This document shows, in pieces, positions 1 to 10,141 of a DNA stretch of 11,780 nt (positions are counted from its first letter, which is position 1; the number at the start of each line of letters is the position of its first letter). Source of the stretch: a virus (lineage: Duplodnaviria; Heunggongvirae; Uroviricota; Caudoviricetes); the IMG/VR virus record IMGVR_UViG_2548877011_000017; one strand, 5' to 3'. Position numbers and translations under genes: made by a program. A model generated the notes under the pieces. It did no database searches. It was not told where the DNA came from and worked only from the letters and a program-made list of their open reading frames with translations.

Positions 1-2799
1 TCAGGCACCGTGACATTTTTTGTACTTTATTCCCGAGCCACAGGGGCATTGTTCATTCCGGCCGACCGCACCAAAAACTTCAGTTAATTTAGTCTTTGCT
101 GCTTTATGGGCAAGCTGTACGATGTAATTTGATTGATTTTGGATTTCTTGACGCTGTACACCTGTGAGGCCTTCGATATAGGGAGCAAGGCGCTGCATTT
201 CGACATCAGCTGCTTTATGCTGACCCGATAGTGCTAATATGACTGCGTATTGGCTTCGAACCTGAATCAGTCGATGTACTAGACCTGCCTCATTGACAAC
301 CGGCAGGACATGTTGCTCCATGACTTCCTTGGCACCGTCGTAATCCTTTATGGCAACAAACTCATCCGCCAGATCTTGGCCCACCCTGACCATGGATTCC
401 GGGGCCATGGCCAGATTGTAGAACTTCATCGAATGAATACGCAGTAATGGTGACAGTTTTCCCTGCGCATCACGAATTCTGGCCAGCAACTCCAGAGCAT
501 CAGCCATATGTTTAAAGTGTTCCTGCATATTTTCGGAATGATTAATAGTTTTCCATAATGCGTCGGCGTTTTTTCCTATGACATCAGCAGGTGTGATACC
601 AAATAAAGAATAGTACCCTTGTATAACATTACAGCTTAATGTTTCAGCATCCTTGAGTTTTTTTAATCTCCAGAGTGCAATGGCATGGTTGTAGTCAAAG
701 ATGCGTTTATGTTCTTCATCTGGGAGTTGGGGGCGGACTTCCTGTGCCAGCTTTTGAACTTCTCGTGCATCATTGCTTTCTGCCGAAAATAACATTCGTT
801 TCATTGCATAGGCCATCTCTTCTTGATAGCCGAACTTGTGCTCCGCAAGTAAAGCTCCCATGATGTTTAACCTCTGAGCAATGTGGTCGGATATTCCGTC
901 TTTAAGCTCAACGAAAACAAGGCCATCCAATGCCCAGAATTTATGAACAGGTCCCAATAAGTCCGATGTTGCAGCACGCTCCAAGCTTGCAAGAATGTCG
1001 ACCGTCACGCCCATCTCATAAAACATTTCTTGGCCTGAGAGTTCGATCAACGTCGTGACATCATTGAGCTTAATATAAAGTTGAGTCAACAACGATAACC
1101 GTTTTGTATTGCGGGTATTATGAAGACTTTCAACTAAAAGGTCTTTCAGCGCTAGTAGCGCTTTGTTCGATATACCCTGATCCATCAGTTCCAGATGTTG
1201 CAGTCCTAGCCCCCTGACAGCATCATGTACCTTCAGGGTCTGGTTTCCATAAATTTCAATAGTGCCAGTAGCGCGCATTTTCCTAATTAAAGAAGCAGCA
1301 CTGCTTGGTGAAATGTTCAGCGAATTGATTAGGAGCGTAGAAATCTCTTCGCGACTCAGCCCTACGTCAGAGAGACTGAACAATGCCAGCGCGCTCTGAA
1401 GTAGTGATTCAAATCCCTGAAATACACGTGACAGAATAATTTCTTGGGCGGTTTCCGCAGTATGGGTTTGTTGCTGGAGTTCAGCACACAGAGCATCGAC
1501 ATTACGCTCATAATCAGAAACGGCGATTTTTGCGGCGCTCTCTACATACAGGGGAAGACCACCAGTGTAAGCCCGTAGCTGCTCGTATCCCATAGCGGTG
1601 GCAAATCCTCCGATATCGTTTACAACGACAGCTACCGTATCGAGATTCCATCCCTGCAGGCCCTCGCGCTGTAGCCCCGTCATGACCTCCAGTTCGCGAA
1701 CGTTTTCGTGAGGCTGGCACAACAGCACAAAACGAATATGTGTAGTTGCATTCAGAACATCCAGTAGATTTTCCGCAGGTACACGATGGGCGTTATCCAG
1801 AACCAGCACCAAGGTGGTACCCTGCTCTTTCAGGTAGGTATCAAAACTCCTAAGAGCCTCAAAACCACTGGCACCGGGGAGCAAAATCCTGCGCAAACCG
1901 TCTTGGTCACGGGCTGTAAATCTAGCAGCCATCTCGCGCACCAGCGTACTGGCCAGAGCTGGACCGGGAAGATCACCGGTGTCGTAATAAGCACAAAGTG
2001 CAGTGGAGTGTAATGCGGCCTGTGCGGCCCAAGCTGTCTTGCCTGCACCTGAGAGTCCACAAAGGATACGGATCCGCTCACCAGATGTGAGAGAAGGTTC
2101 TTCGTTCTGTGGGCGGTACAGTGCTGGTGGTGCAGGAAAGTCCTGTAGCTGAACGATCAACTGTTCAAATAGTTCAGTAAGTTCTTCCGTGAAAAACGTA
2201 TGTTGTCCATTGGTATCGCCTCCGGTGGCGGCAAGCTGAACCAATCCTGCTAACTTCCAAATCAAGGATTCTGGGGACAATAGTGAAAATTTCAGCTTTT
2301 CTGCTTCTGCGATACACCATGTGGCCGCATCAGCCAGAGTACTCCATGCGGGCGGAAGTGCCGGGTGACGTCCAGCTGTCGACTGGGGCCAGACAATAAG
2401 AACATCAGAAGGAAGCTTTTTATCGTCAATCATCTTCTGAAGCAGCGGTCCAGGCGCCTGGTTTACAATAATCACAAAAGAAGCCACCCCTTCGCGGTTT
2501 GCCGAAGTATGCTCATTTCTGAGCTTTACAAATCGCTCCAGAGCCCCCGACACATCGTTGGGCATAATAGGTTTTGAACGGGTTTTAACCTGAATGTAGA
2601 GACGTTCCTGTTTGGATTTCAGCTCAATATCCTCATCAAGCTCGACAGTTACTGAGTCCATAGCTGCCCTCTGCGCCAAAAGTAAGCAGCCTACAGCGTA
2701 AAGATGCTGGTAAAGGAACCCCCGGTGTACCGCTTCGATACGCACCAACTGCACAGGATCCAGTACGTCCAGATTTTGTTTGTTTTCACTTCCCCACAT
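1..2799 (-). CDS. Multidomain NTPase (932 aa): N-terminal PD-(D/E)xK-like nuclease-type domain, central STAND-type P-loop NTPase, helical C-terminal region, terminal SEC-C zinc motif; candidate anti-phage defence protein
   Basis: Complete ORF: ATG at 2799-2797 with AAGGAA 6 nt upstream (plus-strand ttcctt 2806-2811) and TGA at 3-1. Translation shows Walker A GLSGAGKT (nt ~2035-2058), Walker B-like LVLVLDNAH, a following IRFVLLCQPHE strand, an N-terminal GFLYQ...VELDEDIEL...YIQVK pattern (E/D...QxK type nuclease core) and C-terminal CPCGSGIKYKKCHG (nt ~10-51). The CDS call is confident; the function is inferred. Confidence 0.85.
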   Translation of the reverse strand: MWGSENKQNLDVLDPVQLVRIEAVHRGFLYQHLYAVGCLLLAQRAAMDSVTVELDEDIELKSKQERLYIQVKTRSKPIMPNDVSGALERFVKLRNEHTSANREGVASFVIIVNQAPGPLLQKMIDDKKLPSDVLIVWPQSTAGRHPALPPAWSTLADAATWCIAEAEKLKFSLLSPESLIWKLAGLVQLAATGGDTNGQHTFFTEELTELFEQLIVQLQDFPAPPALYRPQNEEPSLTSGERIRILCGLSGAGKTAWAAQAALHSTALCAYYDTGDLPGPALASTLVREMAARFTARDQDGLRRILLPGASGFEALRSFDTYLKEQGTTLVLVLDNAHRVPAENLLDVLNATTHIRFVLLCQPHENVRELEVMTGLQREGLQGWNLDTVAVVVNDIGGFATAMGYEQLRAYTGGLPLYVESAAKIAVSDYERNVDALCAELQQQTHTAETAQEIILSRVFQGFESLLQSALALFSLSDVGLSREEISTLLINSLNISPSSAASLIRKMRATGTIEIYGNQTLKVHDAVRGLGLQHLELMDQGISNKALLALKDLLVESLHNTRNTKRLSLLTQLYIKLNDVTTLIELSGQEMFYEMGVTVDILASLERAATSDLLGPVHKFWALDGLVFVELKDGISDHIAQRLNIMGALLAEHKFGYQEEMAYAMKRMLFSAESNDAREVQKLAQEVRPQLPDEEHKRIFDYNHAIALWRLKKLKDAETLSCNVIQGYYSLFGITPADVIGKNADALWKTINHSENMQEHFKHMADALELLARIRDAQGKLSPLLRIHSMKFYNLAMAPESMVRVGQDLADEFVAIKDYDGAKEVMEQHVLPVVNEAGLVHRLIQVRSQYAVILALSGQHKAADVEMQRLAPYIEGLTGVQRQEIQNQSNYIVQLAHKAAKTKLTEVFGAVGRNEQCPCGSGIKYKKCHGA

Positions 2800-2859
2800 G
2801 ACCTATTCCTTGAGCTATTTGTTTGACGGACTCACATTAGTACTTCAATGTAATCAATT

Positions 2860-2900
2860 GAACTTGAATTATAATTAAAAGAGGCAAAGAAAAGTCATTT
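2860..2900 (-). promoter_or_regulatory. Candidate sigma70 promoter for the 932-aa gene
   Basis: Perfect TATAAT on the minus strand (plus-strand attata at 2868-2873), with a weak -35-like ATGACT/TGACTT 18-19 nt upstream, inside a 243-bp AT-rich spacer. No transcription start data. Confidence 0.3.
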
Positions 2901-2965
2901 GGCCTATTCTCCGTTGATTAATACAAACTAACGATACCAACGTTCACCTAGCTCAAAGCTGACAA

Positions 2966-2980
2966 CCAGACTAGGTCTGG
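2966..2980. promoter_or_regulatory. Perfect 15-bp palindrome CCAGAC-TAG-GTCTGG in the spacer upstream of the 932-aa gene (possible operator or RNA hairpin)
   Basis: Read directly: 6-bp arms around a 3-bp centre. It is not followed by a T-run on either strand, so it is not called a terminator. Confidence 0.3.
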
Positions 2981-3042
2981 GCCTGTGCCATCGAAGTGTC
3001 AATTAATATCTGAACTAATGCTCTTTAATTTCGTCACTTCAA

Positions 3043-3213
3043 TTAATACCGAACATTTCCCTGATAAAATTCCAGTATGCGCTGCATAACTTCGCTCTGA
3101 CGACACTCGCGACAAATTATATTCTGTCGTCTGTTGTAACGGCGTATTTCGCCATCTAGCAATGAATAAATCAGGTCAGGGTCGCTCTTCTTTTTCACTG
3201 CCGCTCTCGACAT
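3043..3213 (-). CDS. Small hypothetical protein (56 aa from ATG 3213), or the C-terminal part of a frameshifted longer protein
   Basis: Open frame MSRAAVKKKSDPDLIYSLLDGEIRRYNRRQNIICRECRQSEVMQRILEFYQGNVRY ending at TAA 3045-3043. The ATG sits at the end of an A8 run (plus-strand T8 3213-3220), with no convincing SD. The ORF track extends this frame to ATG 3294, overlapping the upstream gene by 119 nt. Confidence 0.35.
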   Translation of the reverse strand: MSRAAVKKKSDPDLIYSLLDGEIRRYNRRQNIICRECRQSEVMQRILEFYQGNVRY

Positions 3214-3451
3214 TTTTTTTGCGGGCTTTTCCCCAGTCCTTACGAGCCTGCTCCGAAGGAAATATTCCATGTCCTGAACCATATACTGCGCCACTAACTA
3301 CCAGCTCTTTCACCAGAACTTCTATCAGGTGTCTCGTCGCCCCGGTTTCATTTTCCAGTTGTTTACGCGTTTTTCGCCCATCTCTGCGTACCAGTTCCAC
3401 AATGCGCGCCTTCACTTCTTCCCGCAGTTCGGGAGTAAAAACTTTTGCCAC
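3176..3451 (-). CDS. Small basic hypothetical protein (91 aa), possibly DNA-binding
   Basis: GTG start at 3451-3449 preceded by a strong AGGAGG 4 nt upstream (plus-strand cctcct 3456-3461); TGA at 3178-3176. Translation is K/R/E-rich with a helix-turn-helix-like stretch (TRKQLENETGATRHLIEVLV). Its frame ends 12 codons after the A8 tract. Confidence 0.6.
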   Translation of the reverse strand: MAKVFTPELREEVKARIVELVRRDGRKTRKQLENETGATRHLIEVLVKELVVSGAVYGSGHGIFPSEQARKDWGKARKKNVESGSEKEERP

Positions 3452-5921: not shown

Positions 5922-6106
5922 CCTTCCTTTCATACCAACCCACCCCACCCCACAGAATGCAGGGCAATACTTCGAGTTACCAGGCAGTGGTCAGGGGTTA
6001 AGTAGCCAGCCCGAGGCGTAAGAACATGACGGCAGGGTTCAACTTTAATAACTATGCAGCAGGTTTTTGTTCCGCTACCCCGGCGTTAAGGGGAAATGAG
6101 GTCAAC

Positions 6107-6262
6107 ATGGATACTATCGATCTTGGCAACAACGAATCTCTGGTGTACGGCGTGTTTCCCAACCAGGACGGTACGTTCACCGCGATGACGTATACCAAAA
6201 GCAAAACGTTTAAAACCGAAAATGGTGCCCGTCGCTGGCTGGAAAGAAACTCAGGTGAGTGA
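6107..6262 (+). CDS. ydfA: YdfA-like small protein (51 aa), copy 1
   Basis: MDTIDLGNNESLVYGVFPNQDGTFTAMTYTKSKTFKTENGARRWLERNSGE; GAGGT 4 nt upstream of ATG 6107. The length and sequence match my recollection of Qin-prophage YdfA (DUF1391). The ORF track gives a longer alternative from ATG 6026. Confidence 0.65.
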   Translation: MDTIDLGNNESLVYGVFPNQDGTFTAMTYTKSKTFKTENGARRWLERNSGE

Positions 6263-6263
6263 T

Positions 6264-6392
6264 ATGGATTTCGACACAATCATGGAAAAGGCTTACGAAG
6301 AATACTTCGAAGGTCTTGCCGAAGGCGAAGAAGCTCACAGCTTCAACGAATTTAAACAGGTGCTTTCCAGTTCGGCAAAATCTAACGGCTGA
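6264..6392 (+). CDS. ydfB: YdfB-like small protein (42 aa), copy 1
   Basis: ATG 6264 lies 1 nt after the ydfA-like stop, with GGTGAG upstream; translation MDFDTIMEKAYEEYFEGLAEGEEAHSFNEFKQVLSSSAKSNG, stop TGA 6390-6392. Below the ORF-track size cut-off; identified by manual translation. Confidence 0.6.
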   Translation: MDFDTIMEKAYEEYFEGLAEGEEAHSFNEFKQVLSSSAKSNG

Positions 6393-6421
6393 TAAGCGAA
6401 ACAGCACCGCGAGGAATCAGT

Positions 6422-6622
6422 ATGCAGAAACGAGAACCCGTCATCATCGCGCCAGACTATACCGATGATGAACTTTATGAGTGGATGCACCAGAAAATTA
6501 ATGCAGCGCAGGATCTGAAATGGGCCAATGAAGCCAGAGCTAAGCAGGCTGAAAATCTGTCCGCTCTGGAGCAGGATATCACCAATCTGGAAACGAGTTA
6601 CCAGGCAGTGGTCACGGGTTAA
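6422..6622 (+). CDS. ydfC: YdfC-like protein, copy 1 (66 aa; C-terminus altered by the duplication junction)
   Basis: GAGGAA 7 nt upstream of ATG 6422. It matches copy 2 through ...QDITNLE, then reads across the repeat junction into copy 2 (TSYQAVVTG stop). Confidence 0.6.
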   Translation: MQKREPVIIAPDYTDDELYEWMHQKINAAQDLKWANEARAKQAENLSALEQDITNLETSYQAVVTG

Positions 6623-6727
6623 GTAGCCAGCCCGAGGCGTAAGAACATGACGGCAGGGTTCAACTTTAATAACTATGCAGCAGGTTTTTGTTCCGCTACC
6701 CCGGCGTTAAGGGGAAATGAGGTCAGC

Positions 6728-6883
6728 ATGGATACTATCGATCTTGGCAACAGCGAATCTCTGGTATGTGGCGTGTTCCCCAACCAGTACGGTACGTTCA
6801 CCGCAATGACGTATACCAAAAGCAAAACGTTTAAAACCGAATCTGGAGCGCGTCGCTGGCTGGAAAGAAATTCAGGTGGGTGA
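6728..6883 (+). CDS. ydfA: YdfA-like small protein (51 aa), copy 2
   Basis: Paralogue of 6107-6262 at +621 offset, with 4 amino-acid differences; same RBS context. Confidence 0.65.
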   Translation: MDTIDLGNSESLVCGVFPNQYGTFTAMTYTKSKTFKTESGARRWLERNSGG

Positions 6884-6884
6884 T

Positions 6885-7013
6885 ATGGATTTCGACACAA
6901 TCATGGAAAAGGCTTACGAAGAATACTTCGAAGGCCTTGCCGAAGGCGAAGAAGCTCACAGCTTCAACGAATTTAAACAGGTGCTTTCCAGTTCGGCAAA
7001 ATCTAATGGCTGA
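6885..7013 (+). CDS. ydfB: YdfB-like small protein (42 aa), copy 2
   Basis: Paralogue of 6264-6392 at +621 offset; ATG 6885, stop TGA 7011-7013. Confidence 0.6.
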   Translation: MDFDTIMEKAYEEYFEGLAEGEEAHSFNEFKQVLSSSAKSNG

Positions 7014-7042
7014 TAAGCGAAACAGCACCGCGAGGAATCAGT

Positions 7043-7324
7043 ATGCAGAAACGAGAACCCGTCATCATCGCGCCAGACTATACCAATGATGAACTTTATG
7101 AGTGGATGCACCAGAAAATTAATGCAGCGCAGGATCTGAAATGGGCTAATGAAGTCAGGGCTAAGCAGGCTGAAAATCTGTCCTCTCTGGAGCAGGATAT
7201 CACCAATCTGGAAAAAGAAACGTTAATACGTCTGAAGGTTGTTTTGAAATTGGTGTCACTATCAGTAACCCTGTATTTACTGAAGATGCCATTAACAAGA
7301 GAAAACACGAACGGGAGCTATTAA
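7043..7324 (+). CDS. ydfC: YdfC-like protein, copy 2 (93-aa ORF; the C-terminal 36 residues overlap the dicB-like frame)
   Basis: Same start context as copy 1. After DITNLE it continues KETLIRLKVV... to TAA 7322-7324, reading the dicB-like region in a different frame. Confidence 0.6.
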   Translation: MQKREPVIIAPDYTNDELYEWMHQKINAAQDLKWANEVRAKQAENLSSLEQDITNLEKETLIRLKVVLKLVSLSVTLYLLKMPLTRENTNGSY

Positions 7325-7669: not shown

Positions 7670-10141
7670 ATGAGTAAAGTCTTTATTTGCGCCGCCATTC
7701 CGGACGAACAGGCAATAAAGGAAGAAGGTGCAGTCGCTGTAGCCACAGCTATTGAAGCTGGCGACGAACGCCGTGCTCGAGCAAAATTTCACTGGCAATT
7801 CCTGGAACATTATCCGGCTGCTCAGGACTGCGCTTATAAATTTATTGTCTGCGAGGATAAACCTGGCATACCCCGCCCTGCCCTCGATTCATGGGATGCT
7901 GAATATATGCAGGAAAACCGCTGGGATGAGGAGTCTGCTTCCTTTGTCCCGGTTGAGACTGAATCCGATCCGATGAACGTCACTTTTGACAAGCTGGCCC
8001 CTGAAGTACAGAACGCTGTCATGGTTAAGTTCGACACATGTGAAAACATCACCGTTGATATGGTTATTAGCGCACAGGAATTGTTGCAGGAAGACATGGC
8101 AACATTCGACGGACATATCGTTGAAGCGTTGATGAAAATGCCAGAAGTTAACGCCATGTATCCGGAGCTTAAGCTGCATGCCATCGGGTGGGTTAAGCAT
8201 AAATGTAAGCCTGGTGCCAAATGGCCCGAAATTCAGGCAGAGATGCGCATCTGGAAAAAACGTCGCGAAGGTGAACGCAAGGAAACCGGAAAATACACGT
8301 CTGTTGTTGATCTCGCCCGCGCCAGAACCAATCAACAGCACACTGAAAATTCAACAGGAAAAATCAGCCCGGTCATTGCTGCCATTCATCGCGAATACAA
8401 GCAGACATGGAAAACACTGGATGACGAACTGGCCTACGCTCTCTGGCCTGGTGATGTGGATGCCGGAAACATTGACGGCAGCATCCATCGCTGGGCAAAA
8501 AATGAAGTTATCGACAACGACCGCGAAGACTGGAAGCGTATCTCGGCATCAATGCGCAAACAGCCTGATGCCCTTCGCTACGACCGCCAGACTATTTTTG
8601 GCCTTGTCCGTGAACGTCCGATCGACATTCACAAAGATCCCGTAGCACTGAACAAATATATCTGCGAATACCTGACGACAAAGGGCGTGTTTGAGAATGA
8701 AGAAACAGACCTGGGCACTGTTGATGTTCTCCAGTCATCAGAAACACAAACTGATGCAGTGGAAACTGAGGTATCTGATATCCCAAAAAATGAAACCGCG
8801 CCGGAAGCTGAACCATCTGTAGAGCGTGAGGGGCCGTTCTACTTCCTCTTCACCGACAAGGATGGCGAAAAATACGGTCGCGCAAACAAACTTTCTGGTC
8901 TGGATAAGGCGCTGTCTGCTGGGGCTACTGAAATCACGAAAGAAGAATATTTCGCCCGCAAAAACGGTACATACTCAGGTTCACAACAAAATACTGGTGC
9001 ATCTGACACGACCGCACAACCAGGGCCGGTAAAAGTTACCGCTGACGAAGTAAACAAAATTATGCAGGCAGCCAATATCAGCCAGCCTGACGCCGATGAA
9101 CTGCTTGCAGTATCACGTGGTGAATTTGTTGAAGGGATTAGCGACCCGAATGATCCGAAATGGGTTAAGGGGATCCAGACCCGCGATTCTGTGAACCAGA
9201 ACCAGCAAGAAACGGAACAGAACGACCAGAAAGCGGAACAAAACAGCCCAAATACGCAACAAAACGAGCCAGAAACGAAACAACCTGAACCAGTAGTGCA
9301 ACAGGAACCGGAAAAGATCTGCACCGCCTGCGGTCAGAGCGGTGGCGGCAACTGCCCTGATTGTGGTGCGGTGATGGGTGACGCAACATACCAGGAAATA
9401 TTCGATGGAGAGAATCAGCCTGAAGTTCAGGAAAATGATCCGGAGGAAATGGAAGGCACTGCGCATCAGCACAAGGAGAACACTGGCGGCAATCAGCATC
9501 ATGCCAGCGATAGTGAAACTGGCGAGGCGTCAGATCCCTTAATTAAGGCGAACGGTCATCATAATCTCACATCCACCAGCAGAGCGGGGATTCATCTGAT
9601 GATCGACCTTGAAACCATGGGAAAAAATCCCGATGCCCCGATTATCTCAATAGGTGCAATATTTTTCGATCCGCAAACCGGAGATATGGGACCGGAATTT
9701 AGTAAGACTATCGATCTGGAAACTGCTGGCGGAGTCATTGATCGGGACACCATTAAATGGTGGCTTAAGCAATCACGCGAAGCGCAATCTGCCATTATGA
9801 CCGATGAAATCCCGTTAGATGATGCACTGTTACAATTGCGGGAATTTATCGACGAAAACTCCGGTGAATTTTTTGTTCATGTCTGGGGAAATGGAGCCAA
9901 CTTCGACAACACGATTTTGCGCCGTTCATACGAACGGCAGGGGATCCCCTGCCCGTGGCGTTACTACAACGATCGCGATGTACGCACAATCGTTGAGCTG
10001 GGGAAAGCCATAGACTTCGATGCCAGAACGGCTATTCCATTCGAAGGTGAGCGCCATAATGCACTTGATGACGCCCGTTACCAGGCAAAATACGTTTCAG
10101 CTATCTGGCAAAAACTGATCCCGAGTCAGGCTGATTCTTAA
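7670..10141 (+). CDS. Large phage protein (823 aa) with C-terminal DnaQ-like DEDDh 3'-5' exonuclease domain, internal Cys4 zinc ribbon and Q/E/N-rich linker
   Basis: ATG 7670 with GAGGT about 10 nt upstream. C-terminal motifs HLMIDLETMG (Exo I, D-x-E), WGNGANFDNT (Exo II) and HNALDDARYQA (Exo III, H-x4-D) at nt ~9590-10130; CTAC-x9-CPDC at nt ~9320-9363. It occupies the slot before xis-int where Qin has the ydfE fragment and Rac has recE. Confidence 0.85.
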   Translation: MSKVFICAAIPDEQAIKEEGAVAVATAIEAGDERRARAKFHWQFLEHYPAAQDCAYKFIVCEDKPGIPRPALDSWDAEYMQENRWDEESASFVPVETESDPMNVTFDKLAPEVQNAVMVKFDTCENITVDMVISAQELLQEDMATFDGHIVEALMKMPEVNAMYPELKLHAIGWVKHKCKPGAKWPEIQAEMRIWKKRREGERKETGKYTSVVDLARARTNQQHTENSTGKISPVIAAIHREYKQTWKTLDDELAYALWPGDVDAGNIDGSIHRWAKNEVIDNDREDWKRISASMRKQPDALRYDRQTIFGLVRERPIDIHKDPVALNKYICEYLTTKGVFENEETDLGTVDVLQSSETQTDAVETEVSDIPKNETAPEAEPSVEREGPFYFLFTDKDGEKYGRANKLSGLDKALSAGATEITKEEYFARKNGTYSGSQQNTGASDTTAQPGPVKVTADEVNKIMQAANISQPDADELLAVSRGEFVEGISDPNDPKWVKGIQTRDSVNQNQQETEQNDQKAEQNSPNTQQNEPETKQPEPVVQQEPEKICTACGQSGGGNCPDCGAVMGDATYQEIFDGENQPEVQENDPEEMEGTAHQHKENTGGNQHHASDSETGEASDPLIKANGHHNLTSTSRAGIHLMIDLETMGKNPDAPIISIGAIFFDPQTGDMGPEFSKTIDLETAGGVIDRDTIKWWLKQSREAQSAIMTDEIPLDDALLQLREFIDENSGEFFVHVWGNGANFDNTILRRSYERQGIPCPWRYYNDRDVRTIVELGKAIDFDARTAIPFEGERHNALDDARYQAKYVSAIWQKLIPSQADS

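What the first reader, a model, noticed from the sequence alone, without database searches (positions are those of the whole stretch)
1..2799. Prophage-borne 932-aa nuclease-STAND NTPase-SEC-C protein: candidate single-gene anti-phage defence
The translated protein has an N-terminal E/D...QxK pattern (GFLYQ, VELDEDIEL, YIQVK) like PD-(D/E)xK/Cap4-type effector nucleases, a STAND-like P-loop core (GLSGAGKT, LVLVLDNAH, IRFVLLCQPHE), a probable winged-helix and about 400 aa of helical repeats. This effector-NTPase-sensor layout is that of Avs/bNACHT antiviral proteins. It is shorter than typical Avs proteins and ends in a SEC-C motif, so it may be an undescribed variant. It sits as cargo after the replication module behind its own AT-rich promoter region.
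Basis: partly seen in the sequence, partly recalled or inferred. Interest (0 to 1): 0.8.

Follow-up and report, generated by a model that had tools for sequence, protein, structure and literature searches.

The report
Prophage nuclease-STAND immune sensor with SecA-type tail
An E. coli prophage carries a single 932-residue gene built like a bacterial NLR/Avs antiviral sensor (DNA-cutting domain, ATP switch, helical sensor) that unusually ends in the small metal-binding knob SecA uses to dock on SecB and ribosomes; it very probably protects the lysogen against other phages, but this has not been tested.

Summary
Window 1-2799 (minus strand) is one complete 932-aa ORF. Profile, motif and structure evidence agree on five parts: a Cap4-type PD-(D/E)xK nuclease (aa 15-213), a STAND NTPase with helical and winged-helix domains (241-540), a TPR-like solenoid (541-908) and a SecA-type CxCx8CH metal-binding tail (911-932). 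Catalytic and switch residues are 95-100% conserved across 219 full-length homologues.

The family is patchy. It occurs in 16 of 5,426 complete E. coli genomes and in at least 184 species spanning Alpha-, Beta- and Gammaproteobacteria, Desulfobacterota and Negativicutes. It rides on prophages, conjugative plasmids, a Tn7-linked island and genomic islands. Recurrent neighbours are Gabija, AbiH, Lamassu and Ppl-like genes. Here it sits in a lambdoid-prophage hotspot (DUF977 | gene | hokD) where phage Tritos carries other defence cargo.

It matches no Avs1-5, bNACHT or other PADLOC model, and no solved Avs by sequence. No searchable paper names it.

Best reading: an uncharacterised, compact Avs-like single-gene defence. 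Sensing of a phage protein would trigger ATP-dependent oligomerisation and DNA cleavage. The trigger, the phenotype and the role of the SEC-C tail are untested. I could not exclude that it lies among the unnamed or unlisted clades of Lee et al. 2026.

The parts
1..2799 (-). Complete CDS of the 932-aa nuclease-STAND-TPR-SEC-C protein (ATG 2799-2797, stop 3-1). The DNA is 100% identical to the locus annotated WP_000264572.1, 'SEC-C metal-binding domain-containing protein'.
2161..2757 (-). Cap4-type PD-(D/E)xK nuclease domain (aa 15-213), the predicted effector.
2584..2643 (-). Nuclease active-site block E53-x-D55-x-D57-x-E59 ... Q70-V71-K72, lying on strands β2 and β3.
   Evidence: Conserved at 97-99.5% in 219 full-length homologues. 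Secondary-structure placement.
1645..2079 (-). P-loop nucleotide-binding domain (aa 241-385). Walker A GLSGAGKT is at 2035-2058 (K254). Walker B LVLVLDN is at 1792-1812 (D335, N336).
   Evidence: AAA_22 above cut-off. K254 and D335 are 100% conserved and N336 is 95%. The model shows a five-stranded core.
1360..1644 (-). STAND helical domain (aa 386-480) carrying the GxP signature TGGLPLYV (G414, P416; nt 1549-1563).
1180..1359 (-). Winged-helix domain (aa 481-540) with a conserved V-H525-D526 at nt 1222-1230. This is the counterpart of the MHD motif of NB-ARC proteins, the ADP-contacting histidine.
   Evidence: H-H-E-E-H topology in the model. H525 is 98% and D526 95% conserved.
76..1179 (-). 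TPR-like α-solenoid (aa 541-908), the predicted ligand sensor.
4..69 (-). SecA-type metal-binding domain / SEC-C motif (aa 911-932): C918-x-C920-x8-C929-H930 with conserved S922 and Y926.
   Evidence: Pfam SEC-C 38.8 bits. 16 of 21 residues are identical to the E. coli SecA MBD peptide 1sx0. Motif definition from bioRxiv 10.1101/613315. It is the most conserved segment of the family, at 0.75 pairwise identity.
2800..3042 (-). AT-rich upstream intergenic region with TATAAT at 2873-2868 and Shine-Dalgarno-like AAGGAA at 2811-2806. The part from about 2800 to 2953 is absent from related phages, so it travels with the gene.
   Evidence: Sequence read. GC 0.39. Homology to phage Tritos begins at 2954. 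The consensus scan found no minus-strand promoter, so promoter function is inferred only.

Best explanation
The gene encodes a compact, single-polypeptide antiviral STAND (Avs-like, NLR-like) defence protein, carried as a moron in a defence hotspot of a Qin/Rac-type lambdoid prophage.

**Proposed mechanism** (by analogy with SeAvs3, EcAvs4 and SeAvs7):
1. In uninfected cells the protein is a closed monomer. The winged-helix His525 is presumed to hold bound ADP, which keeps the N-terminal Cap4-type nuclease inactive.
2. During infection by another phage, the TPR-like solenoid (aa 541-908) binds a phage-derived ligand, most likely a conserved phage protein.
3. This opens the NTPase, exchanges ADP for ATP (Walker A K254) and drives oligomerisation.
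4. Oligomerisation brings the Cap4 nuclease domains together into an active assembly that degrades DNA (active site E53/D55/D57/E59, Q70-x-K72). Phage replication stops, probably at the cost of the infected cell.

**Other features.**
- The invariant Asn336, in place of the second Walker B acidic residue, suggests a binding-driven switch with slow hydrolysis.
- The C-terminal SecA-type metal-binding domain is an accessory module, present in about 79% of the family. It probably tethers or regulates the protein through SecB or ribosomes, or autoinhibits it as it does in SecA.

**Shown here:** the domain identities, conservation of catalytic and switch residues, mobile and defence-island context, and absence of a universally conserved partner gene.

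**Inferred:** the ligand class, oligomerisation, DNA cleavage, the abortive outcome and the tail's function.
For: **Architecture.**
- Pfam Cap4_nuclease, AAA_22 and SEC-C all score above their cut-offs.
- Full model pLDDT 79.9.

**Purifying selection on both activities (219 full-length homologues).**
- E53, D55, D57, E59, Q70 and K72: 97-99.5%
- K254 and D335: 100%
- P416: 100%
- H525: 98%

**Effector swap.** Homologue P0264 keeps the NTPase, sensor and SEC-C but has a TIR-like N-terminus.

**Defence context.**
- Gabija is adjacent in Vibrio cholerae and Yersinia.
- AbiH is a neighbour in 9 loci, GajA/GajB in at least 5, LmuB in 5 and a Ppl-like gene in 4 of 89 loci.
- Druantia-type genes lie nearby in Variovorax, and Tn7 cargo in Alteromonas.

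**Hotspot.**
- The same DUF977|gene|hokD slot is used in prophages with different immunity regions.
- Phage Tritos carries PDC-S15 there, and Rosmerta (RmrT/RmrA) just beyond hokD.

**Patchy, mobile distribution.**
- 16 of 5,426 E. coli genomes.
- At least 184 species across several phyla.
- 53 plasmids, 20 of them conjugative.
- IS-disrupted and truncated copies exist.

**Mechanistic precedent.** Cap4-NTPase-TPR Avs proteins are activated by phage proteins and tetramerise through their Cap4 domains (PMC13581612).
Against: - No experiment exists: neither phage resistance, nor nuclease activity, nor a trigger is known.
- No PADLOC Avs or bNACHT model matches, and the best PADLOC hit is only the nuclease domain of LmuA. 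No solved Avs matches by sequence.
- The sensor is not hypervariable (0.36-0.41 pairwise identity against 0.48-0.49 for the enzymatic domains). There is no sign of an arms-race signature.
- Walker B has Asn instead of a second acidic residue, so ATPase competence is uncertain.
- No minus-strand promoter was called by the consensus scan, so expression in the lysogen is unproven.
- The TIR-swapped relative is a single metagenomic sequence whose TIR score is below the Pfam cut-off.
Confidence: 0.75

Rival explanations
1. It is a defence or conflict nuclease that senses nucleic-acid structures or other mobile DNA, as Lamassu/DdmABC-type Cap4 systems do for plasmids or replication intermediates. 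On this reading it is not a pattern-recognition receptor for a phage protein.
Against: The similarity to LmuA is confined to the nuclease domain. There is no SMC-like LmuB partner in the window. The sensor is a TPR-like solenoid, whose closest structural matches are protein- or peptide-binding modules (LGN, Rap, MalT). Characterised TPR-sensor Avs families bind proteins.
Confidence: 0.1
2. It is primarily an addiction or selfish-stability module, or a decaying remnant, that benefits the prophage or plasmid rather than protecting against phages. For example, it could be a latent toxin unleashed on element loss.
Against: There is no cognate antitoxin or universally conserved partner in 89 loci. 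The full-length architecture and all catalytic residues are under strong purifying selection across phyla. The regulated STAND switch architecture is typical of sensors, not of constitutive toxins.
Confidence: 0.06
3. It is a phage replication or regulatory factor: an ORC/Cdc6-like initiator or loader belonging to the adjacent replication module, or a MalT-like transcription regulator.
Against: Syntenic phages with the same replication module lack the gene, and the aligned backbone starts only at 2954. There is no DNA-binding HTH output domain; the N-terminal domain is a nuclease. The STAND signatures GxP and WHD His-Asp are conserved. Most family members are outside prophages and next to defence systems.
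Confidence: 0.03

Closest known systems
Avs3 (SeAvs3) and Avs7 (SeAvs7): antiviral STAND proteins with an N-terminal Cap4-like nuclease (Gao et al. 2022; Lee et al. 2026, PMC13581612)
MalT / AP-ATPase / NB-ARC branch of STAND NTPases (MalT, Apaf-1, plant NLRs, Pyrococcus PH0952)
   Different: MalT has a LuxR-type DNA-binding output, Apaf-1 a CARD, and plant NLRs CC or TIR domains. This protein has a nuclease output. Walker B is hhhhDN rather than hhhhDD. Sequence identity is only 10-14%.
Cap4 (CBASS effector), Lamassu LmuA and Hachiman HamA nucleases
   Same: Same nuclease fold and E/D...QxK-type active site.
   Different: Those nucleases are controlled by SAVED/cyclic-oligonucleotide binding, an SMC-like LmuB, or a HamB helicase. 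Here the controller is a fused STAND NTPase.
SecA C-terminal metal-binding domain and its copies in YecA and YchJ
   Same: CxCx8CH with the conserved Ser and aromatic residue. It is 16/21 identical to the SecA MBD, which is as close as YecA and YchJ are to SecA (73%; bioRxiv 10.1101/613315).
   Different: Here it is attached to an immune-type STAND nuclease rather than to a translocase or chaperone. Binding to SecB or ribosomes is untested. Similar tails also occur on PADLOC E2/E1-E2 (CBASS-associated) and PDC-S12 models.

Membership tests
STAND NTPase superfamily (Leipe, Koonin & Aravind 2004 definition, from own knowledge) | P-loop NTPase core with Walker A and Walker B | tested here: met
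   GLSGAGKT and LVLVLD are present, with K254 and D335 100% conserved. AAA_22 scores above its cut-off. The second Walker B acidic residue is Asn in 95% of members, which is a deviation.
STAND NTPase superfamily | Helical domain with a GxP motif, followed by a winged helix with a conserved nucleotide-contacting His | tested here: met
   GGLPL has P416 at 100%. VHD has H525 at 98% and D526 at 95%. WHD topology appears in the model. Whether His525 actually contacts the nucleotide was not testable.
STAND NTPase superfamily | Fold-level similarity of NBD-HD-WHD to established STAND proteins, and C-terminal superstructure-forming repeats | tested here: met
Avs (antiviral STAND) in the broad sense | Effector-NTPase-sensor tripartite layout with a defence-type effector | tested here: met
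   Cap4 nuclease, STAND NTPase and TPR-like sensor. One relative has a TIR-like effector instead.
Avs (antiviral STAND) in the broad sense | Genomic association with defence systems or mobile elements | tested here: met
   Gabija, AbiH, Lamassu, Ppl-like and Druantia-type neighbours. The prophage slot is shared with PDC-S15 and lies near Rosmerta. No formal enrichment statistic was computed.
Avs (antiviral STAND) in the broad sense | Confers phage resistance; activated by a phage component | not testable with these tools
   This requires plaque assays and trigger screens.
Named families Avs1-5 (AVAST I-V) | Match to the family HMMs or sequence similarity to solved representatives | tested here: not met
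   No Avs/AVAST model appears among PADLOC hits at E<=1. No Avs chain was found by phmmer or hmmsearch against the PDB.
Named families Avs6-24 and the 589 STAND clades of Lee et al. 2026 | Placement in their NTPase clades and sensor structural clusters | not testable with these tools
   The supplementary tables are not held, and the main text gives no accession numbers for these proteins. Their Cap4-seeded search makes inclusion in the catalogue plausible. The C-terminal region after the WHD is about 394 aa, close to their 400-aa sensor cut-off.
bNACHT (bacterial NACHT NLR-like proteins) | NACHT-type NTPase module | tested here: not met
   No NACHT Pfam hit and no bNACHT PADLOC hit. The structural neighbours are MalT, AP-ATPase and NB-ARC types.
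Cap4 / DUF4297-type PD-(D/E)xK nucleases | Profile match, fold and a conserved acidic...QxK active site | tested here: met
Lamassu (LmuA-LmuB) | LmuA effector encoded together with an SMC-like LmuB | tested here: not met
   The LmuA hit covers only aa 26-119. There is no LmuB in the window or in the E. coli locus.
SecA-like metal-binding domain (SEC-C) | CxCx8C[HC] with a conserved Ser and an aromatic residue; Pfam PF02810 | tested here: met
   C918, C920, S922, Y926, C929 and H930 are present. Pfam score 38.8 bits. Alignment to SecA, YchJ and other PDB peptides. Motif definition from 10.1101/613315. Binding of metal, SecB or ribosomes was not testable.

The most novel reading that the evidence does not exclude
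The SecA-type metal-binding tail is a functional host-factor interface of an NLR-like immune receptor. It could dock the sensor on SecB (a tetramer) or on ribosomes. That might survey newly made phage proteins, use the host factor as an assembly scaffold, or guard it. It could also autoinhibit the protein until SecB or the ribosome is engaged, as it does in SecA. This would be a second, independent case of host-factor co-option by bacterial STANDs, alongside EF-Tu in Avs7 and DnaJ in bNACHT25.

Two observations are consistent with a modular 'adaptor' role for the C-terminus. The tail is the most conserved segment of the family. And the one clade that lost it (16 loci) has instead a conserved, unannotated 151-aa gene encoded convergently just downstream.
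Probability: 0.2. Interest if true: 0.75.

Novelty: new variant of a known kind. Interest (0 to 1): 0.5.

Why it matters
If it is confirmed as a defence gene, it adds a compact (932-aa) and very widely transferred Avs-like family to the repertoire of prophage-borne immunity in E. coli and many other Proteobacteria. Its small size and single-gene nature make it experimentally convenient.

The more interesting point is the tail. A near-canonical SecA metal-binding domain, known to bind SecB and ribosomes, is fused to an NLR-like nuclease and is the best-conserved part of the family. That makes a specific question directly testable: do bacterial pattern-recognition receptors routinely recruit or monitor core host machinery? 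Simple deletions and a ΔsecB host would address it.

It also documents the DUF977|hokD junction of Qin/Rac-type lambdoid prophages as a defence-cargo hotspot.

Tried and rejected
- **Housekeeping or replication role** (helicase, primase, terminase, ORC/Cdc6). Rejected because the profile and fold place the protein in STAND, and syntenic phages lack the gene.
- **Membership of Avs1-5, bNACHT, PD-λ/PD-T, Gao, Rst or PDC candidates.** No PADLOC model matches beyond the isolated nuclease (LmuA, HamA, DUF4297) and SEC-C (E2, PDC-S12) segments.
- **Obligatory partner gene.** Clustering 601 neighbour ORFs from 89 loci found no universal neighbour. AbiH recurs in 9 loci but in varying orientation and distance, and it is absent in E. 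coli, so I treat it as island co-residence. The Vibrio downstream 321-aa gene is unrelated to AbiH.
- **First SEC-C count.** My first regex missed the CxCx8C-x-C variant (…KKCGC) of betaproteobacterial members and overcounted SEC-C-less loci. Corrected.
- **Literature.** No paper holds the accession WP_000264572. SEC-C is not mentioned in Lee et al. 2026, DefensePredictor or the domain-centric NAR paper. The only SEC-C defence protein found, lactococcal Rugutis, is unrelated. Brenes & Laub 2025 is not held. The supplements of Lee et al. are not held.
- **Promoter and terminator scans.** No minus-strand promoter or terminator was called around the gene.
- **Rfam.** Nothing in the window.
Full report
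**1. The observation.** The window carries one complete ORF on the minus strand at 1..2799, with its ATG at 2799, its stop at 3-1 and a length of 932 aa. Three Pfam models score above their curated cut-offs. SEC-C (aa 914-931) scores 38.8 bits against 20.4. AAA_22 (239-364) scores 32.6 against 27. Cap4_nuclease (25-77) scores 27.1 against 26.2, rising to 29.0 for the isolated N-terminal segment.

**2a. Structure of the whole protein.** An AlphaFold2 model built on 26 homologues has mean pLDDT 79.9. It resolves the following parts:
- an α/β domain (aa 15-213)
- a five-stranded P-loop core (241-385)
- a helical domain (386-480)
- a winged helix with H-H-E-E-H topology (481-540)
- an all-helical solenoid (541-908)
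- a small C-terminal knuckle

**2c. Residue conservation.** An exhaustive profile search found 3,379 relatives at E<1e-3 and 390 clusters (50% identity) at E<1e-30. Nearly all full-length relatives keep the entire architecture at about 880-960 aa. Across 219 full-length sequences:

| Element | Residues | Conservation |
|---|---|---|
| Nuclease active site | E53, D55, D57, E59, Q70, K72 | 97-99.5% |
| Walker A | K254 | 100% |
| Walker B | D335 | 100% |
| Residue after Walker B Asp | N336 | Asn in 95%, Asp in 10 sequences |
| GxP signature | P416 in GGLPL | 100% |
| Winged-helix His-Asp | H525 / D526 | 98% / 95% |

The GxP motif and the winged-helix His-Asp are the STAND-specific signatures. The VHD here corresponds to the MHD motif of NB-ARC proteins. 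That equivalence rests on my knowledge of the family and is supported by the structural matches. Both enzymatic activities are under purifying selection.

**2d. The tail.** The last 22 residues read C918-x-C920-x8-C929-H930 with S922 and Y926. This is the CxCx8CH motif, with the conserved serine and aromatic residue, that defines SecA-like metal-binding domains (bioRxiv 10.1101/613315). The segment is 16/21 identical to the E. coli SecA MBD peptide. In SecA this domain binds SecB and ribosomes and takes part in autoinhibition. The tail is present in 172 of 219 full-length homologues. After correcting a regex miss, it is present in 68 of 87 full-length genomic loci. It is the most conserved segment of the family at 0.75 mean pairwise identity. 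The enzymatic domains reach 0.48-0.49 and the sensor 0.36-0.41.

**2e. Context in E. coli.**
- The DNA occurs in 16 of 5,426 complete E. coli genomes, always chromosomal, and is annotated only as 'SEC-C metal-binding domain-containing protein'.
- It lies in a Qin/Rac-type lambdoid prophage integrated beside a tRNA-Ser gene next to mtfA. It sits between the replication module (O-like replisome organiser, DUF977) and hokD.
- The same slot is used in prophages with different immunity regions.
- Related phages align with the window only from about 2954-3055 onward. The gene and about 150 bp of upstream DNA therefore form an inserted cargo unit.
- In phage Tritos the slot instead holds a PDC-S15 candidate defence gene (E 1e-98), with Rosmerta RmrT/RmrA just beyond hokD. 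This is a defence hotspot.
- One genome has an IS3 insertion in the gene, and truncated copies exist.

**2f. Context elsewhere.**
- A scan of species-representative genomes found relatives in at least 184 species. These span Gamma-, Beta- and Alphaproteobacteria, Desulfobacterota and Sporomusa.
- Relatives occur in 53 plasmid records, 20 of them conjugative.
- Only two phage records carry a relative, and both are metagenomic.
- Neighbourhoods contain Gabija directly adjacent in Vibrio cholerae and Yersinia. AbiH lies next door in Pseudomonas and Alteromonas. Druantia-type genes lie nearby in Variovorax, and Tn7 TnsD/TnsE in Alteromonas.
- I clustered 601 neighbour ORFs from 89 loci. No neighbour is universal. 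The recurrent annotated families are AbiH (9 loci), GajA/GajB (at least 5), LmuB (5) and a Ppl-like ATPase (4).
- The protein is therefore a stand-alone gene that habitually resides in defence islands and on mobile elements.

**2g. Effector swap.** One relative, P0264, aligns from the NTPase onward and keeps SEC-C, but it has a different 160-aa N-terminus with a TIR_2 match (E 1.2e-4, below the Pfam cut-off). Such modular effector exchange is typical of Avs/NLR-like proteins. The evidence here is a single metagenomic sequence.

**3. Most likely mechanism.** I propose the following by analogy with structurally characterised Cap4-bearing Avs proteins. SeAvs3 and SeAvs7 have an ADP-bound autoinhibited monomer. 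A phage protein is captured by the TPR sensor, and ATP-dependent tetramerisation follows through the NTPase and Cap4 domains. The result is dsDNA cleavage (PMC13581612). This protein would sense a phage-derived ligand with residues 541-908, switch nucleotide state, oligomerise and unleash its nuclease.

- **Shown here:** domain identities, conserved catalytic and switch residues, context.
- **Inferred:** ligand class, oligomerisation, substrate, abortive outcome.
- Asn336 suggests slow or absent hydrolysis.
- Expression from its own promoter in the lysogen is plausible but unproven. The gene has an AT-rich 243-bp spacer, a perfect TATAAT at 2873-2868 and an SD at 2811-2806, and it travels with its upstream DNA. 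The consensus scan called no minus-strand promoter.

**4. Comparison with known systems.** It works like an Avs and belongs to the STAND superfamily, since all tested defining features are met. It is not a member of Avs1-5 or bNACHT: there are no PADLOC or Pfam NACHT hits and no sequence match to solved Avs chains. Its NTPase is structurally nearest to the MalT/AP-ATPase/NB-ARC branch.

Lee et al. 2026 catalogued 589 STAND clades and 684 sensor clusters, seeding searches with Cap4-bearing proteins, and named Avs7-24. Their supplementary tables are not available to me. I therefore cannot exclude that this family is one of their clades, or even one of the E. coli families without a known trigger (Avs22-24). 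The region after the WHD is about 394 aa, right at their 400-aa sensor cut-off.

No searchable paper mentions this protein's accession or a SEC-C-tailed STAND.

**5. Novelty and interest.** The kind (Cap4-STAND-TPR antiviral sensor on a prophage) is well known. The variant features are the compact size and, above all, the conserved SecA-type metal-binding tail. Avs7 recruits EF-Tu and bNACHT25 monitors DnaJ. A tail known to bind SecB and ribosomes therefore suggests another host-factor interface. This is speculative, and I give it about 0.2 probability, but it is simple to test.

A side observation fits a modular C-terminus. The only sizeable clade lacking the tail comprises 16 loci, mostly Alphaproteobacteria, and ends in '…NPPPPQWQMP…'. 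It always has a conserved 151-aa gene of unknown fold encoded convergently about 85 nt downstream, and none of the 68 tail-bearing loci has it. Because this is one clade, the association may reflect a single evolutionary event.

**6. Verdict.** Its interpretation is supported by every computational test available, with three corrections: the protein is Avs-like rather than bNACHT-like, it is not in Avs1-5, and its promoter is unverified. Function as a defence system remains a strong inference (confidence 0.75), not a demonstrated fact. Interest is moderate, at 0.5.

Noticed in passing
L046:10734-11189 (-) and 15 further loci (L047, L050, L052, L054, L056, L057, L059, L061, L063, L065, L067, L069, L072, L073, L077): In the one sizeable clade of the family that lacks the SEC-C tail, a conserved 151-aa gene (about 70-80% identity between loci) is always encoded convergently about 85 nt downstream. 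It has no Pfam or PDB similarity. None of the 68 SEC-C-bearing loci has it. It may be a partner or substitute for the tail, or the pattern may reflect a single clade-specific event.
   Followed up: partly
L004:12860-13762, L010:12822-13781, L011:3061-4020, L003:4465-5424 and others (9 loci): AbiH genes recur immediately beside family members in Pseudomonas, Alteromonas, Halopseudomonas and Aliiglaciecola, and a few genes away in Vibrio. They appear in both orientations. AbiH is absent from the E. coli prophage locus. This could be island co-residence or a loose functional pairing.
   Followed up: partly
window 5973-7214: A 621-bp tandem duplication with copies at 95% identity over the 300-nt reference stretch the tool compared. 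It duplicates the small early-left-operon ORFs: the DUF1391-like 78-aa ORF at 6026-6262 and 6647-6883, and the ydfC-like ORF at 6422-6622 and 7043-7324.
   Followed up: partly
window 3043-3451 (-): The DUF977 gene directly upstream of the STAND gene is split into two overlapping ORFs (83 and 91 aa). It is annotated as frameshifted in the identical E. coli locus, where the prophage integrase is also frameshifted. The prophage may be partly decayed while the STAND gene stays intact.
   Followed up: no
L002:4507-5841 (+), L002:1627-3383 (-): Phage Tritos carries a PDC-S15 candidate defence gene in the same DUF977|hokD slot, and a Rosmerta (RmrT/RmrA) pair just beyond hokD. This marks the junction of Qin/Rac-type lambdoid phages as a defence-cargo hotspot.
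   Followed up: partly
window 4-69 (-); PADLOC models PDLC00833, PDLC00865, PDLC00870-00872 and PDLC04917: SEC-C-type C-terminal tails also occur in PADLOC models for E2 / E1-E2 proteins (CBASS-associated, by my own knowledge) and in candidate system PDC-S12. The SecA-like metal-binding knob therefore recurs on unrelated defence proteins.
   Followed up: no
window 7670-10141 (+): An 823-aa early-left-operon protein with a C-terminal DEDDh 3'-5' exonuclease domain, variously annotated 'exodeoxyribonuclease VIII' or '3'-5' exoribonuclease'. It has a long acidic, low-complexity middle region. The window has no dicB ORF and no Rfam DicF hit, unlike related prophages.
   Followed up: no
NZ_OZ546984.1 361511-365751 (hit H13): In one E. 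coli genome the STAND gene is interrupted by an IS3-family ISEc52 element. Truncated copies (194-530 aa) also occur in the 90% cluster. This suggests occasional inactivation, as expected for a costly or potentially toxic gene.
   Followed up: no
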